In this document: piece after piece, positions 1,951 through 5,061 of the stretch
How positions within the stretch are numbered: position 1 is the first letter of the stretch
How the letters are laid out: the number at the start of each line of letters is the position of its first letter
Virus genome (UHGV): UHGV-0123951
DNA: 36,881 bases
Strand: one strand, 5' to 3'
DNA from: a virus
The notes under the pieces: generated by a model
Told to the model about the DNA's origin: nothing
Seen by the model: only the letters and a program-made list of their open reading frames with translations
Databases searched by the model: none
Position numbers and translations under genes: made by a program

Positions 1951-2868
1951 TTATGCTGCTGGTTTTTGTGGCTGTTCTTCTTTGTATGAAAGAAGGTCAC
2001 ACATCAAATTAACTACCTTGCTGAATTGGAAAAGGTCAGCGCCTGCCTGATGACGCCACTGGAATGCTTTGTCATCTTCATCATTAAATGTCTGAGATTG
2101 GGTATTGATGCGCGAAAAATGGAAATTTTCGGTCAGAATGAAGGTCACACCGCAACCGGATAACTCCATTTTATCAGCAGTGAAACTACTACTAAGGCTA
2201 TCGGCCAGTTCGCTTTGAATTGACTCATGCTCAGCTGAGTAGCGAATAACTTCCTTTTGATCTGCGTAGCGTGATAGCTGAATATAATTCCCGACAGTGA
2301 ATCCTTCGAATGCATTGGCTGCACCATTGATGTAGTTCTTCAGGCGTGTAGTCAGTCCATTCTTGATATCACTAATGTTGATTGTTTCTGTTTTCACTGA
2401 ACCGACAACCTTAATCAGCATTGCGCACACCATGCTGGCGATTTGCTTGTTGGTCGTGTTAATCACCAGTAATTTTTCATCAGTGCTATACAGCGCCAGG
2501 ATCAGCGTCGACTTCACAAATGCTTTTTTGCATAACTCCGCCAGAACACTATCAATAATGGCTAAACGCTCGGCACGTTTTAATTTATGCCCGGACATGT
2601 TCTCAATATTTTGAATACGTGCCGTGGCTTCTTTCATAAGCACATGCTGCGGAATAATTTTCTGATCGCGACGTACAACTATGGCGTAACCGCCAGTAAT
2701 AGGGGTAACCAGTTCGCCGGTGATTGGATTAGGCACAAAAGATGTTCGCGACAATTCAGTCTCACCTATCTCAGAATAGGGGAGTTCGAGAAGATGGCCT
2801 TCAATTGCTTCAATGCCAGGTAGTGTGGCGCGGTACACGATTGCGTTACGGAACTTAGGTAATTTCAT
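1951..2868 (-). CDS. rdgC: RdgC-like recombination-associated protein (305 aa)
   Basis: Length and N-/C-terminal sequence pattern resemble the RdgC family as recalled from memory; GAGGAAAG RBS. Confidence 0.6.
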   Translation of the reverse strand: MKLPKFRNAIVYRATLPGIEAIEGHLLELPYSEIGETELSRTSFVPNPITGELVTPITGGYAIVVRRDQKIIPQHVLMKEATARIQNIENMSGHKLKRAERLAIIDSVLAELCKKAFVKSTLILALYSTDEKLLVINTTNKQIASMVCAMLIKVVGSVKTETINISDIKNGLTTRLKNYINGAANAFEGFTVGNYIQLSRYADQKEVIRYSAEHESIQSELADSLSSSFTADKMELSGCGVTFILTENFHFSRINTQSQTFNDEDDKAFQWRHQAGADLFQFSKVVNLMCDLLSYKEEQPQKPAA

Positions 2869-3286
2869 TTAACTTTCCTCTGCACAAGGTTTTAGTCCAT
2901 ACACGAAGTTGTGGCGGCTGCCACCGCCGAACTTTCTCCATACACAACAGAGAAGGGCACCTGCATTGGTCGGCGGCTTGCAGATACCGCTTTCTTTTTG
3001 CCCGGGTGGATTGGGTTATGAGCCCGTCGCCCGGTGATGCCCTTTTCTGTTGCGTAAAAAGGGCGGTACCGAGGTAGAACATTATCTTCGTCCCCCTTGC
3101 ATAAGGTTGAAGACCCTGGTACCGCCAAGACTACTCACAGCAATACTGGAACTACGGTTATCACGGTCCTAAGCGTGATTTGGTTGTGGTGGCCGGTACT
3201 GCGATATTCCGGCATGGGTTGATTACCAGTGACGCACCCTTTCGGGACACTCCCTCACGGTTTAGCGCATCAGCCTGCGCATTCAC

Positions 3287-3417
3287 CACAACGAAGAGAG
3301 CACTGCCGGTGTTCGAATCGAACGAACCTTTTCCCTGCCCAACCCTCCCAACTGAATGGGACTGTCTGGAATCGAACCAGCACTTATGCCTTGCTCGTCA
3401 ATGCTCTCGTCGTTGTG
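3287..3417. ncRNA. candidate structured RNA domain: 16-bp closing helix enclosing three hairpins, two with identical 7-nt loops
   Basis: 3287-3302 pairs with 3402-3417 (15/16); hairpins at 3311-3327 and 3366-3380 share loop AATCGAA (+) / UUCGAUU (-); third hairpin 3346-3361; no plausible ORF. Confidence 0.3.
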
Positions 3418-3420
3418 CCC

Positions 3421-3470
3421 TGAAAAAGGCTGGCGGTGACCGGACAAACGGGAAAACACCGGGCCGCCAG
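3421..3470 (-). terminator. intrinsic terminator downstream of the N-like gene (tL-like)
   Basis: Minus-strand hairpin CUGGCGG...CCGCCAG followed by CCUUUUUCA. Confidence 0.55.
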
Positions 3471-3699
3471 AACAGGGAGTTACTTGTTATTGCTTTGGCC
3501 TGCTTTTAACCACATCAGGCGCGGTGGTAGGTATCTTCGGGCGGGGTGCTAAGGGGGGGGATTGACCCTGTTCCCTAACACTCCTGCTGGTTTTGGTATT
3601 CCTGGCTTGGGTATCGCCACCAGCTATAGGAATTTGACTATGAGTTGCGGTTAATCAGGCCGCGCCTCTGTTACCCCTCCCGAAGACACCTGTCTGCTG

Positions 3700-3912
3700 T
3701 TAAAACGTCAAATTGCGTATCAGTGGAGCAGCTGTAGAACCGCCAGTCATTTGTACCTTGACGCGGTTCACTGATGGCTTGCTGCGTTCTTCGCCGGTAA
3801 AGATATTGAACATGCACGGTCCCAGAACTGTGCGAGGAACCCCACGTAAAACCACCACTTCCCCAGCCTTGGGGTGCTTGCGATAAGCCTTGCGCCGTTG
3901 TGCTGCATTCAT
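3700..3912 (-). CDS. putative N-like antitermination protein (70 aa, arginine-rich N-terminus)
   Basis: First gene downstream of PL/OL; N-terminus MNAAQRRKAYRKHPK resembles an arginine-rich RNA-binding motif; GAGGG RBS. Confidence 0.35.
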   Translation of the reverse strand: MNAAQRRKAYRKHPKAGEVVVLRGVPRTVLGPCMFNIFTGEERSKPSVNRVKVQMTGGSTAAPLIRNLTF

Positions 3913-4017
3913 CGTGTAACCCTCAGTTTTTAGTCATGCTCAGCGAATCATCCGGTTATTCATACGCCACCGGCGGCTACTTCGTGGGCGTCCTGCCCGT
4001 TCGCTGTTAATGTTATT

Positions 4018-4047
4018 AATGTAGGATAACTTACTATTTGGGGTCAA
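4018..4047 (-). promoter_or_regulatory. PL-like promoter (-35 TTGACC, 18-nt spacer, -10 TACATT on minus strand)
   Basis: Hexamers read on the minus strand, overlapping operator repeats. Confidence 0.4.
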
Positions 4048-4078: not shown

Positions 4079-4104
4079 CGAAAAAAAACCGGGTATTCCC
4101 GGTT
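4079..4104 (-). terminator. intrinsic terminator after cI (possibly bidirectional)
   Basis: Hairpin AACCGGG-tatt-CCCGGTT flanked by an A8/T8 run immediately 3' of the cI stop. Confidence 0.6.
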
Positions 4105-4107
4105 TTC

Positions 4108-4764
4108 TTATAAATCCATTATTACTTGTCTTACTAATCCTACCAATCGGCAGTTGCCATTGACTTCTAAAGTCCTGTAATTGGGGTTAAGAGGTACTAG
4201 GTATTTCAGCGGCCCATCGATGACGAACTTTTTAATAGTGGCTTCATCACTGCCCATAAGCTGTGCAATAACAATTTTACCATTAGCTTGACTGGCATCA
4301 CCAAAATCAGGTTCTACAACGACAATAGAACCTTCGGGAATACTTGGTGCACCTGTAGGGTTGGTCATCGAGTCGCCGCGAACAATGAGTGCAAATGCAC
4401 TTTCAGAAACGGCAGCCGAAGTATAGACCCAGTCATGAATGTCCCGCTCTGTGATCGCTACGCAATTGGCCGTCCATTCCCCGGCCTGTACCCATGTGAG
4501 AACGGGAACTGACCTAATTCCGAATCTTTGCTCCGGGTCCATAGTTGGTGGCTGCTGACTTCCATCATCCTTTCCATCCAGTAACCACTGCGGTGTCTTT
4601 TCTAATGCAGCCGCAAGCGCCTGGAGGTTTTCACCACCCGGTTTGTAGTCACCGGATTCCCAACCGGTGATAGTGACGCGATTAACCCCGACGAGCTTTG
4701 CCAGGACGGATTGCGTCATCTTTAGCTCTTTTCGTCTGCTTCGGATTCGATCATTCATTTTCAT
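4108..4764 (-). CDS. cI: cI-type prophage repressor, HTH plus S24 LexA-like autopeptidase domain
   Basis: HTH (MTQSVLAKLVGVNRVTITGWESG), candidate Ala-Gly cleavage site (VQAGEW), Ser/Lys dyad (GDSM ... KKF); start set at MKMND (4764) because the track extension to 4842 runs through the operators. Confidence 0.8.
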   Translation of the reverse strand: MKMNDRIRSRRKELKMTQSVLAKLVGVNRVTITGWESGDYKPGGENLQALAAALEKTPQWLLDGKDDGSQQPPTMDPEQRFGIRSVPVLTWVQAGEWTANCVAITERDIHDWVYTSAAVSESAFALIVRGDSMTNPTGAPSIPEGSIVVVEPDFGDASQANGKIVIAQLMGSDEATIKKFVIDGPLKYLVPLNPNYRTLEVNGNCRLVGLVRQVIMDL

Positions 4765-4826
4765 GTAGGTAATCCTACCATTATCTGATGTAGGAGTGCT
4801 TGACCAATCAATGTAAGATATCCTAC
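4765..4826. promoter_or_regulatory. OR operator cluster (GTAGGTAATCCTAC 4765-4778; GTAGGAGTGCTTGA 4790-4803; GTAAGATATCCTAC 4813-4826)
   Basis: Near-palindromes with consensus GTAGG-N4-CCTAC between divergent cI and cro. Confidence 0.55.
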
Positions 4827-4829
4827 TAT
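4800..4829 (+). promoter_or_regulatory. PR-like promoter (-35 TTGACC, 18-nt spacer, -10 TACTAT)
   Basis: Hexamers overlap operator 4813-4826; cro RBS GAGGG and ATG follow. Confidence 0.45.
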
Positions 4830-4863
4830 CAGTGCACTGCATTACTTAACTCCAGAGGGAAAA

Positions 4864-5061
4864 ATGAAAAAGAATGACGTTATTTCTTACTTCGGTGGCG
4901 TAGGGAAAACCGCTAAGGCTTTGAATATCTCTCATGCGTCCGTGTCGGGATGGGATGAAATTATTCCAAAGGGACGAGCTTTTGAGATCCAAGCGCTGAC
5001 CAAAGGTGTATTGAAAGTTGACCAATCACTTTATGAAAAGCGTAGCCACTCGGCTGCGTGA
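4864..5061 (+). CDS. cro: Cro-like HTH regulator (65 aa)
   Basis: Divergent from cI across the operator region; small HTH-like protein. Confidence 0.7.
   Translation: MKKNDVISYFGGVGKTAKALNISHASVSGWDEIIPKGRAFEIQALTKGVLKVDQSLYEKRSHSAA

What the first reader, a model, noticed from the sequence alone, without database searches (positions are those of the whole stretch)
2869..3699. 830-bp ORF-free, GC-rich segment in the PL operon with a nested-helix domain and twin identical-loop hairpins
Phage genomes are tightly packed, yet this stretch between the N-like gene and rdgC has no credible ORF. It holds a minus-strand intrinsic terminator (3421-3470) and, just beyond it, a 131-nt domain (3287-3417) closed by a 15/16-bp helix around three hairpins. 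Two hairpins carry the same 7-nt loop (UUCGAUU on the minus strand, matching the tRNA T-loop consensus), but there is no acceptor or anticodon arm. Further strong hairpins lie at 3060-3085 and 2905-2935. This could be one or more structured RNAs (processed leader, sRNA, protein-binding or antitermination element) that I cannot assign to a known family.
Basis: partly seen in the sequence, partly recalled or inferred. Interest (0 to 1): 0.62.

Follow-up and report, generated by a model that had tools for sequence, protein, structure and literature searches.

The report
Processed prophage leader with tRNA-like RNAs
The gene-free stretch is a real array of folded RNA modules at the start of a prophage's early-left operon, related to the E. 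coli dicF small-RNA locus, and it includes two tRNA look-alike RNAs that match no Rfam 15 family.

Summary
Window 2869-3699, read on the minus strand, is non-coding and highly structured. It is not one element. It is a mosaic of conserved modules kept in a fixed order in hundreds of Enterobacterales phages whose flanking genes differ.

The order is: leader A, an optional 70-aa ORF, stem-closed domain D, terminator t1, the 131-nt domain C, a linker, a DicF-like sRNA with terminator t2, stem-closed domain B, a 5'-UTR hairpin, then rdgC.

C shows strong compensatory covariation. It has two true T-arms with UUCRAUU loops but is not a tRNA. B carries a 14-nt exact copy of the initiator-tRNA anticodon arm.

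The C closing helix recurs with at least nine unrelated interiors. A reduced copy lies in E. coli Qin, where RNase III makes the 190-nt DicF precursor.

Best reading: a PL-driven non-coding precursor, homologous to the dicF locus, that RNase III and RNase E cut into small RNAs. The function of the tRNA mimics is unknown. No module reaches any Rfam 15 threshold.

The parts
4018..4047 (-). PL-like sigma-70 promoter (TTGACC, 18-nt spacer, TACATT). It lies just after the bidirectional terminator hairpin that ends the repressor gene (about 4080-4107).
   Evidence: Consensus scan and sequence. In homologues, diverse promoter/operator sets sit at the same distance upstream of module A.
3935..4008 (-). 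Module A: a roughly 70-nt structured leader at the 5' end of the PL transcript. It has an outer helix GCGAA/UUCGC, a hairpin GGC-AGGAC-GCC, and a covarying inner helix CCGG(U)/(A)CCGG. It lies outside the finding's coordinates but belongs to the same system.
   Evidence: There are 106 unique homologues. The inner helix has five compensatory variants. It is present in 53 phage records, including a T5-like Providencia phage. blastn finds no similarity to HK022 putL.
3700..3912 (-). It is probably a real small gene of unknown function and sits inside an optional 242-bp insertion (3698-3939).
   Evidence: It is intact at 70 aa with 79-97% amino-acid identity in four other loci. It is absent from L007, L082, L084, L090 and L091. 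It has no Pfam or PHROG hit. The only tblastn hit is a Pseudomonas phage hypothetical protein.
3529..3697 (-). Domain D: a roughly 135-nt interior closed by a 16-17-bp helix (GGUGUCUUCGGG.GGGG / CCCCGCCCGAAGAUACC).
   Evidence: Fold. The same closing helix carries at least four different interiors in other phages, including ST64B.
3421..3470 (-). Intrinsic terminator t1 (CUGGCGGCCCGG...CCGG.CACCGCCAG followed by CCUUUUU). It is paralogous in layout to the DicF-like terminator t2.
   Evidence: Sequence and fold. It is conserved in about 26-28 related loci and in ST64B. In some phages it is fused directly to module B.
3287..3417 (-). Module C: a 131-nt tRNA-like RNA with these parts.
- A 19-position closing helix, 3417-3399 paired with 3305-3287.
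- T-arm 1 at 3382-3364.
- A variable hairpin at about 3362-3343.
- T-arm 2 at 3327-3311.
- Invariant junctions ACGAGCAAGG, UGGGCA, AAA and ACC (nearly invariant as ACCGGCA).
   Evidence: Fold z = -4.9. Across 74 distinct homologues, 93% of cells are paired against 38-55% in slid controls, and 18 pairs change on both sides against 4-7. The many G-U pairs fit only the minus strand. Both loops are conserved as UUCRAUU. ARAGORN finds no tRNA. Rfam matches only the T-arm, at 11.8 bits.
3146..3286 (-). Linker between C and the DicF-like sRNA. It contains the conserved motif GGUGAAUGCG and the conserved hairpin AUCACG-CUUAGGAC-CGUGAU (3179-3160).
   Evidence: The GGUGAAUGCGG motif is shared with ST64B and Qin. 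The hairpin is shared with SPN9TCW and phiNP-type loci. In ST64B and Qin the corresponding stretch gives weak STnc100 (RF02076) hits of 34-35 bits. The window gives none.
3056..3145 (-). DicF-like sRNA:
- a conserved single-stranded segment UAUUGCUGUGAGUAGUCUU (3145-3127);
- a terminator hairpin GGCGGUACC...GGUACCGCC (3126-3062);
- a U-tract (3060-3056), forming terminator t2.
   Evidence: The weak Rfam DicF hit at 3061-3139 scores 15.1 bits against a gathering score of 48. The single-stranded segment is conserved and the hairpin covaries across phages. The 5' arm UUUGGCGGUAYCAGUUU is shared with K-12 DicF.
2944..3055 (-). Module B: a stem-closed domain. Its 19-position closing helix is paralogous to that of C. 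The inner hairpin carries CGGGCUCAUAACCC (3026-3013), identical to the E. coli initiator-tRNA anticodon arm. A second hairpin is variable.
   Evidence: In alignment A3, 93% of cells are paired against 39-51% in slid controls, and 7 pairs change on both sides against 0-2. The 14-nt identity to metZ is confirmed. The core occurs in 2520 of 5426 complete E. coli genomes and is never annotated as RNA.
2905..2935 (-). A 5'-UTR hairpin (GGCGGUGGCAGCCGCC core) just upstream of the ribosome-binding site of the first gene.
   Evidence: Fold. It is conserved in front of different first genes.
1951..2868 (-). rdgC, the first protein-coding gene downstream of the non-coding array.
   Evidence: Pfam RdgC, 2.2e-32. 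phrog_724, 6.7e-76.

Best explanation
The interval is the untranslated, modular front part of the early-left (PL-type) operon of a lambdoid prophage. It is the homologue of the dicF locus of E. coli prophage Qin. Each step below is marked as shown or inferred.

1. When the repressor is lost, transcription starts at the PL-like promoter and first makes module A (inferred from promoter position).
2. The polymerase must then cross about 1.1 kb of RNA, nearly all untranslated, that holds two intrinsic terminators, t1 and t2. I infer that module A, or an unidentified factor, gives the polymerase read-through ability.
3. The long transcript folds into three domains (D, C, B). Each is closed by a 16-19-bp helix of conserved sequence. 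The helices are shown by covariation for C and B, and by recurrence of the same stem around different interiors for D.
4. RNase III cuts these helices. This is inferred from the Qin homologue, where the RNase III cut that creates the 190-nt DicF precursor falls in the equivalent helix. A second RNase III cut just 3' of DicF falls in a long helix that occupies B's position.
5. Cutting releases the interiors as separate small RNAs. It also defines the 5' end of a DicF-type sRNA, whose 3' end is terminator t2. The downstream rdgC mRNA is left starting with a protective hairpin (inferred).
6. Module C is a compact tRNA-elbow mimic with two genuine T-arms. Module B displays an initiator-tRNA-like anticodon hairpin. 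I propose that both act in trans on a host factor that recognises tRNA. This last step is the least certain.
For: **Transcribed strand.** G-U pairs are frequent and A-C pairs rare in the helices of C and B when read on the minus strand. No sigma-70-like site is predicted inside the interval.

**Fixed module order.** A, then C, then B is kept in most of 124 viral loci, although the repressor and rdgC are shared by only 5-9 of them.

**Covariation.**
- C: 18 pairs change on both sides, and 93% of cells are paired.
- B: 7 pairs change on both sides, and 93% of cells are paired.
- A: the inner helix has five compensatory variants.

**Homology to Qin.**
- The covariance model of C finds the same closing helix with a shorter interior in ST64B (25.5 bits). 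It also finds it in K-12 Qin, ending about 117 nt upstream of dicF (20.5 bits).
- The GGUGAAUGCGG linker motif and the UUUGGCGGUAYCAGUUU arm are shared.

**RNase III.**
- The 190-nt DicF species needs RNase III (PMC10448788). Counting 190 nt back from the DicF 3' end lands in CCGUGCGCUUCCGGUUGUGG, the 3' strand of that helix.
- The 72-nt DicF 3' end is also made by RNase III (PMC5069750). It falls in the 5' strand of the long helix after dicF.

**Cargo is functional, not filler.**
- The C interior keeps invariant single-stranded junctions and the tRNA T-loop rule (G-C closing pair, UUCRAUU) across 74 variants and more than 10 genera.
- In Salmonella phage SPN9TCW, C abuts the 5' end of a tRNA-Arg gene. 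It travels with the DicF-like terminator as a separate cassette outside any PL operon.
Against: - There is no expression or end-mapping data for this window or any full-length homologue.
- RNase III cleavage is inferred from one reduced homologue (Qin). The cut position is derived from a fragment length, not read from the gel.
- The DicF-like sRNA scores only 15 bits against Rfam DicF. Its complementarity to ftsZ is no better than shuffles, so its targets are unknown.
- The same stems carry many unrelated interiors. This could mean that for most phages the interior matters little.
- The initiator-tRNA match is a post-hoc comparison with one tRNA. It is seen in about 0.3% of shuffles before correcting for roughly 40 tRNA species. 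In relatives the loop varies at positions 37-38.
- The way polymerase passes t1 and t2 is not shown. No boxA is present in the window's leader. Module A has no blastn similarity to HK022 putL.
Confidence: 0.6

Rival explanations
1. Purely cis-acting leader. The terminators and helices only attenuate, insulate and stabilise the early-left mRNA, like the lambda nutL-N leader with its RNase III site. The interiors of the stems are spacers, and no trans-acting RNA is made.
For: - Two intrinsic terminators sit in the leader.
- The closing helices are better conserved than most interiors, which are swapped freely among phages.
- A protective hairpin precedes the ribosome-binding site.
- Some phages have t1 fused directly to B, without C or the DicF-like unit.
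Against: - The C interior is under strong purifying selection, with invariant junctions and covarying arms.
- C and the DicF-like unit occur as an independent cassette next to a tRNA gene in SPN9TCW.
- The Qin homologue produces a trans-acting sRNA (PMC5069750).
Confidence: 0.2
2. DNA-level elements. The conserved inverted repeats are recombination or mobility sites (MITE-like or cassette-exchange sites), and the folds are incidental.
For: - Conserved inverted repeats flank unrelated cargos.
- Module C is 93% identical between a lambdoid prophage and a podovirus.
- The number of units varies between phages.
Against: - G-U versus A-C asymmetry marks one strand as RNA.
- Internal hairpins covary.
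- The loops obey the tRNA T-loop consensus on that strand only.
- An RNase III cut maps to the equivalent helix in Qin.
- No second copy of any module is present elsewhere in the window.
Confidence: 0.07
3. Decaying tRNA genes. The T-arms and the anticodon-like hairpin are remnants of a former phage tRNA cluster and have no present function.
For: - The T-arm consensus appears twice in C.
- B has a 14-nt identity to tRNA-fMet.
- A real tRNA-Arg(UCU) sits inside the homologous cassette in SPN9TCW and L053.
- T-arm-like hairpins occur upstream of the DicF-like unit in L227 and L234.
Against: - Relics would not keep the same non-tRNA architecture, with compensatory changes, across 74 variants and many genera.
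- The B core is retained in 46% of complete E. coli genomes.
Confidence: 0.06
4. Decayed or unrecognised protein-coding sequence.
For: - Some phage records annotate 'hypothetical proteins' over the matches.
- Two PHROG families match short stretches.
Against: - No Pfam hit.
- The PHROG matches coincide with RNA modules, one of them on the antisense strand.
- Indels are not multiples of three.
- The substitutions are base-pair-compensating.
Confidence: 0.02

Closest known systems
dicF locus of E. coli cryptic prophage Qin (the ydfC-dicB non-coding interval and DicF sRNA, Rfam RF00039)
   Same: - Same place in a PL-type operon under a CI-like repressor.
- An sRNA that ends at an intrinsic terminator with the shared arm UUGGCGGUA.
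- The same long helix upstream (CCAUAACGCGAAAGCGCA.../...UGCGCUUCCGGUUGUGG), which is the RNase III site for the 190-nt precursor, and another long helix at the equivalent position downstream.
- The shared GGUGAAUGCGG motif.
   Different: - The window's sRNA has a different single-stranded segment and a 51-nt terminator loop. It fails the Rfam DicF threshold (15 against 48 bits).
- The upstream stem carries a conserved 93-nt tRNA-like interior instead of Qin's roughly 45-nt degenerate one.
- The downstream stem carries an initiator-tRNA-like hairpin.
- The first gene is rdgC, not dicB.
Ribosomal RNA operon architecture (structured RNAs enclosed by RNase III stems, with spacer tRNAs and boxA antitermination)
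   Same: - A long untranslated transcript whose functional RNAs are each enclosed by a long helix.
- A tRNA or tRNA-like unit between them.
- In some related phages a boxA-like sequence follows the leader.
   Different: - There is no sequence relation.
- No boxA is present in this window.
- The cargos are small and variable.
- The array ends in protein-coding genes.
HK022 put RNA (processive antiterminator RNA located just after PL)
   Same: Module A is about 70 nt, starts within about 10 nt of the PL transcription start, and is folded. It is far better conserved than the promoters and operators in front of it. That pattern is expected for an RNA that binds a host machine.
   Different: - blastn finds no similarity to the HK022 PL region. 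There is only a loose resemblance, CGAAC.GGC...GGAUGA.
- No second copy is found in the window, including the right operon.
- Binding to RNA polymerase is untested.
tRNA and tRNA mimics (bacterial Y RNA YrlA, tmRNA tRNA-like domain, P4 CI / P1 C4 RNAs)
   Same: - T-arms with a G-C closing pair and a UUCRAUU loop.
- A long terminal stem with the tRNA-like part at its tip.
- Co-transcription with, and direct abutment to, a real tRNA in SPN9TCW.
   Different: - There are two T-arms in one domain.
- There is no acceptor end, D-arm or anticodon arm.
- No Rfam family of this kind scores above noise.

Membership tests
DicF sRNA (Rfam RF00039) | Reaches the Rfam gathering score (48 bits) for the 52-nt covariance model. 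| tested here: not met
   The hit at 3061-3139(-) scores 15.1 bits, E = 3.7. K-12 dicF scores 76.7 bits in the same test.
DicF sRNA (Rfam RF00039) | Encoded in the non-coding part of a PL-type operon controlled by a CI-like repressor, with its 3' end at an intrinsic terminator. | tested here: met
   The gene order is repressor, promoter, leader, sRNA and terminator, then first gene. The hairpin is followed by UUUUU at 3060-3056.
DicF sRNA (Rfam RF00039) | Flanked by long helices that RNase III cleaves. | tested here: inconclusive
   Homologous helices are present and covary. Cleavage is shown only for Qin, in the literature.
DicF sRNA (Rfam RF00039) | Antisense complementarity to the ftsZ ribosome-binding region. 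| tested here: not met
   Duplex energies with K-12 ftsZ (-70 to +40) are no better than shuffled sequences. The test is crude, since K-12 DicF itself reaches only the 17th percentile.
tRNA | Cloverleaf with an acceptor stem, D-arm, anticodon arm and T-arm. | tested here: not met
   ARAGORN finds no gene in the window. Rfam matches only 16 nt of the T-arm.
tRNA | T-arm: a 5-bp stem closed by G53-C61, with loop U54-U55-C56-R57-A58-N-N. | tested here: met
   It occurs twice in C. Both G-C closing pairs are invariant. The fourth loop position is always G or A and the first three and fifth are invariant across 74 sequences; the last two positions of loop 2 are occasionally C.
HK022-type put antiterminator RNA (tested on module A) | Sequence or structure homology to putL/putR. 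| tested here: not met
   blastn-short against the HK022 immunity region gives only chance 8-9-mers. HK022 is not among the 53 phage records that match A.
HK022-type put antiterminator RNA (tested on module A) | A folded RNA of about 70 nt that begins at the start of the PL transcript. | tested here: met
   A begins 5-10 nt after the -10 element of many different promoters. Its helices covary.
HK022-type put antiterminator RNA (tested on module A) | Binds the RNA polymerase beta' zinc-binding domain and suppresses termination. | not testable with these tools
   This needs in vitro transcription or genetics.
Lambda N / nut antitermination | An N-family protein together with boxA-boxB nut sites in the leader. 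| tested here: not met
   The 70-aa ORF has no Pfam or PHROG hit. No boxA within 3 mismatches lies on the minus strand of the leader.
STnc100 (Rfam RF02076) | Reaches the Rfam gathering score (47 bits). | tested here: not met
   The window gives no hit at E up to 10. ST64B and Qin give 34-35 bits in the equivalent linker, also below threshold.

The most novel reading that the evidence does not exclude
Enterobacterial temperate phages carry, at the head of their early-left operon, a set of conserved RNase III 'slots': helices of fixed sequence that express and release interchangeable small RNA cargos. Two widespread cargos are tRNA mimics: a double-elbow RNA (C) and an initiator-tRNA anticodon-arm mimic (B, present in about half of complete E. 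coli genomes). On this reading they act in trans as decoys or modulators of host factors that recognise tRNA, such as tRNA-cleaving defence nucleases, RNase P or the initiation machinery. The cargo swapping would then reflect an arms race.
Probability: 0.2. Interest if true: 0.85.

Novelty: new variant of a known kind. Interest (0 to 1): 0.62.

Why it matters
- DicF has been studied for 35 years as an isolated 53-nt RNA. This analysis places it inside a much larger, conserved, modular non-coding system that is shared by many Enterobacterales phages.
- The system contains at least three strongly covarying RNA families (A, B, C) that match no Rfam 15 family. One of them sits unannotated in about 46% of complete E. 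coli genomes.
- The conserved stems with interchangeable interiors suggest a general phage device for producing small RNAs from a long precursor.
- The two tRNA look-alikes give concrete, testable candidates for phage RNAs that interfere with host tRNA biology.
- Practically, several 'hypothetical protein' calls and two PHROG families in this region appear to be mis-annotated RNA.

Tried and rejected
- **Rfam.** Whole-window gathering mode gave 0 hits. Permissive mode on the region and on C and B alone gave only noise, a T-arm fragment and a sub-threshold DicF hit.
- **Hammerhead idea for C** (CUGACGAG...GAAA). Rejected: the first position pairs and covaries as part of the closing helix, the spacing does not fit the hammerhead core, and no ribozyme family hit appeared.
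- **Integron attC-like reading of CACAAC...GUUGUG.** Rejected: it does not fit RYYYAAC/GTTRRRY.
- **boxB on the plus strand at 3417-3430 (GCCCTGAAAAAGGC).** Judged a by-product of the minus-strand terminator U-tract, because the flank is not conserved in alignment A2.
- **boxA inside the 3' strands of the closing helices** (UGCUCU...). Only a 6-nt resemblance in the window.
- **Pas sRNAs and the mEp021 nut sites.** Both belong to other genome regions or phage groups.
- **Paralogues in the window.** No second copy of any module, so there is no putR-like partner.
- **K-12 CPS-53** (yfdP region, homologous first gene). It has lost the leader.
- **Papers not held.** King 2011 and Faubladier 1994 could not be read.

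Full report
**Setting.** The window carries a lambdoid-type immunity region. The features below run in minus-strand (transcription) order.
- An S24/HTH repressor lies at 4108-4842 (minus strand). A divergent P22-Cro-like gene lies at 4864-5061 (plus strand).
- A terminator hairpin follows the repressor.
- A sigma-70-like promoter lies at 4047-4018.
- A 70-aa ORF lies at 3700-3912.
- The gene-free stretch 2869-3699 follows.
- rdgC lies at 1951-2868.

The interval is somewhat GC-richer (0.53-0.56) than its neighbours.

**Checking the observation.**
- The 131-nt domain (3287-3417, minus strand) folds at -55.3 kcal/mol, z = -4.9.
- The whole 831 nt folds better than shuffles on both strands, z = -4.5 and -3.7.
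- ARAGORN finds no tRNA.
- No Rfam 15 family reaches its threshold anywhere in the window.

**Conserved but mosaic.** blastn against phage genomes and E. coli genomes shows that no record covers 80% of the interval. Separate blocks are each conserved at 75-97%. Phages such as ST64B, phiNP, Stx2a_1447 and an E. coli prophage all have an unannotated 600-1000-bp gap at the same place.

A pattern scan of viral contigs returned more than 120 loci containing the 131-nt domain. In most of them a leader block (A, window 3935-4008) lies 200-1700 nt upstream. Another block (B, window about 2944-3055) lies 170-300 nt downstream. Only 5-9 of the loci share the repressor or rdgC. The non-coding modules are therefore the conserved unit and the genes around them are interchangeable.

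**Module C (the 131-nt domain).** I aligned 74 distinct sequences and tested this structure: a closing helix, T-arm 1, a variable hairpin and T-arm 2.
- 93% of cells are paired, against 38-55% when partners are slid.
- 18 pairs change on both sides, against 4-7 in slid controls.
- 220 cells change on both sides, against 14-57 in slid controls.
- None of 500 shuffles reaches the observed covariation score.

G-U pairs are common and A-C pairs rare, so the RNA is the minus strand.

Both T-arms keep an invariant G-C closing pair and the loop UUCRAUU. This is the tRNA T-loop rule. The junctions ACGAGCAAGG, UGGGCA, AAA and ACC are invariant, and the last is nearly invariant as ACCGGCA.

A one-genome-per-species scan found the element in 13 species, all Enterobacterales. 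It occurs in 79 of 5426 complete E. coli genomes and is never annotated.

Length changes in the variable hairpin are not multiples of three. The PHROG family that matches here does so on the antisense strand. Decayed coding sequence is therefore excluded.

**Link to dicF.** A covariance model of C also finds shortened versions that keep only the closing helix.
- One lies at the same position in ST64B (25.5 bits).
- One lies in E. coli K-12 Qin at L141 2668-2766. It ends about 117 nt upstream of dicF (20.5 bits).

Qin and ST64B also share the motif GGUGAAUGCGGCU(G/C)AGCGCACGCGG with each other. The window shares its start.

A conserved single-stranded UAUUGCUGUGWGUAGUCUUGG precedes it. It gives a weak Rfam DicF hit of 15 bits.

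In Stx2a-type relatives the 5' arm UUUGGCGGUACCAGUUUGUAC is 18/20 identical to DicF, by my own count from the sequences.

Published work shows that the 190-nt DicF precursor needs RNase III and the 53-nt form needs RNase E (PMC10448788). RNase III also makes a 72-nt 3' end (PMC5069750).

Counting 190 nt back from the DicF end, in both the K-12 sequence and the paper's Fig. S1 sequence, lands in CCGUGCGCUUCCGGUUGUGG. This is the 3' strand of the helix homologous to C's closing helix. The 72-nt end lies in the 5' strand of the long helix that follows dicF.

I therefore infer that the closing helices of C and B are RNase III sites.

**Module B.** It starts 5 nt after the DicF-like U-tract. Its closing helix (CAAC.AGAAAAGRGCAUC / GGUGCYCUUYUCUGUUG) is a paralogue of C's.
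- In 29 sequences, 93% of cells are paired against 39-51% in slid controls.
- 7 pairs change on both sides, against 0-2 in slid controls.

Its inner hairpin contains CGGGCUCAUAACCC. This is a 14-nt exact match to the anticodon arm of E. coli initiator tRNA (metZ), including the three G-C pairs and the CAU loop. CAU is invariant in relatives, although the two loop bases after it vary.

The B core is present in 2520 of 5426 complete E. coli genomes, with up to four copies per genome. It is either unannotated or called 'hypothetical protein'.

**Stems as slots.** I anchored a second scan on B and searched representatives with the C model. The same closing helix carries at least nine unrelated interiors of 83-178 nt. 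Domain D (3529-3697) behaves the same way: a conserved 16-17-bp stem with at least four interiors.

In some phages t1 is fused directly to B, so whole units (a terminator plus a stem domain) are gained and lost.

In Salmonella phage SPN9TCW the cassette sits between the terminase and portal genes. It runs leader, C, tRNA-Arg(UCU) abutting C's last base, a conserved hairpin, then the DicF-like terminator. The unit therefore also works outside a PL operon, and it is co-transcribed with a real tRNA.

**Module A and read-through.** A begins 5-10 nt after the -10 element of many different promoter/operator sets. It is far better conserved than they are. Its inner helix has five compensatory variants.

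A also occurs after a promoter in the terminal repeat of a T5-like Providencia phage. There it has further compensatory changes and is followed by a boxA-like CGCUCUUUAAAAA.

Its position and size recall HK022 putL, but blastn shows no similarity. An antiterminator role is plausible, because a leader that is almost entirely untranslated and holds two terminators needs one. It is not shown. The window has no boxA.

**The '70-aa N-like' ORF.** It stays intact at 79-97% amino-acid identity in four other loci. It lies in a 242-bp insertion missing from close relatives. It has no family match. It is probably a real small gene. Nothing shows that it is an N protein.

**Verdict.** The finding is real and more extensive than described. 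It is best filed as a new, richer variant of the dicF-type processed leader. The DicF-like sRNA fails formal DicF membership. C, B and A match no Rfam 15 family, and I found them in none of the papers I could search.

The functions of the tRNA mimics, the targets of the sRNA and the read-through mechanism remain inferences.

Noticed in passing
window 3935-4008 (-); L258 1180-1260: Module A is a roughly 70-nt covarying RNA at the very start of PL transcripts. It occurs in 53 phage records, including ST64B, SfV, SfII, SfIV, ZF40, YeP1, mEp237 and SPN3UB. It also follows a promoter in the terminal repeat of a T5-like Providencia phage, where a boxA-like CGCUCUUUAAAAA comes next. It is a candidate antiterminator RNA and is not similar to HK022 put.
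   Followed up: partly
window 3700-3912 (-), indel 3698-3939: The 70-aa ORF is conserved intact in four other loci but lies in an optional 242-bp insertion. It has no Pfam or PHROG family. The only tblastn hit is a Pseudomonas phage hypothetical protein.
   Followed up: partly
window 2999-3067 and 3297-3419: PHROG families phrog_33599 and phrog_36251 match short ORF translations that coincide with RNA modules B and C (C on the antisense strand). These families are probably built from mis-called ORFs. Several GenBank phage records annotate 'hypothetical protein' over the same modules.
   Followed up: partly
L001 2428-2504 (-); L053 6839-6917 (+): A tRNA-Arg(UCU) gene is embedded in the homologous cassette. 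In SPN9TCW it directly abuts the 3' end of module C. In L053 it lies about 190 nt downstream of C.
   Followed up: yes
L227 and L234, upstream of their DicF-like units; window about 3186-3205 (-): A recurring motif CCACAAC / CACCACAAC follows a hairpin just upstream of the DicF-like segment. In L227 and L234 that hairpin is T-arm-like (GUGGGUUCGAAUCCCAC). This suggests further tRNA-like punctuation.
   Followed up: no
L221, L228, L238, L241, L242: In these phages terminator t1 is joined directly to module B, and C and the DicF-like unit are missing. This points to recombination between the paralogous 'terminator plus CAAC-stem' repeats.
   Followed up: no
L143 and the L160/L171/L177/L191/L195 group, just after module A: In these loci module A is followed by a hairpin (AGCGCCCUACAGGACGCU). 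In L143, whose extract runs further, UUUGCUCUUUAAAAA comes next. This resembles the rrn-type boxB-boxA order and hints at Nus-factor antitermination in some of these leaders.
   Followed up: no
L003 6636-6837; L004 5672-5873: The right-hand operons of Stx2a_1447 and ST64B carry isrK and C4 antisense RNA above the Rfam thresholds, with sub-threshold c4-a1b1 hits alongside. These are known families and are not present in the window.
   Followed up: no
window 3417-3430 (+): GCCCTGAAAAAGGC on the plus strand resembles lambda boxB. It is the complement of the t1 U-tract region and is not conserved in relatives, so it is most likely coincidence.
   Followed up: yes
L257 1740-2130 (E. coli K-12 CPS-53): K-12 CPS-53 keeps the homologous first gene (yfdP, the same start as in Stx2a-type phages). 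It has lost the structured leader, so K-12 offers only Qin as an experimental handle.
   Followed up: yes
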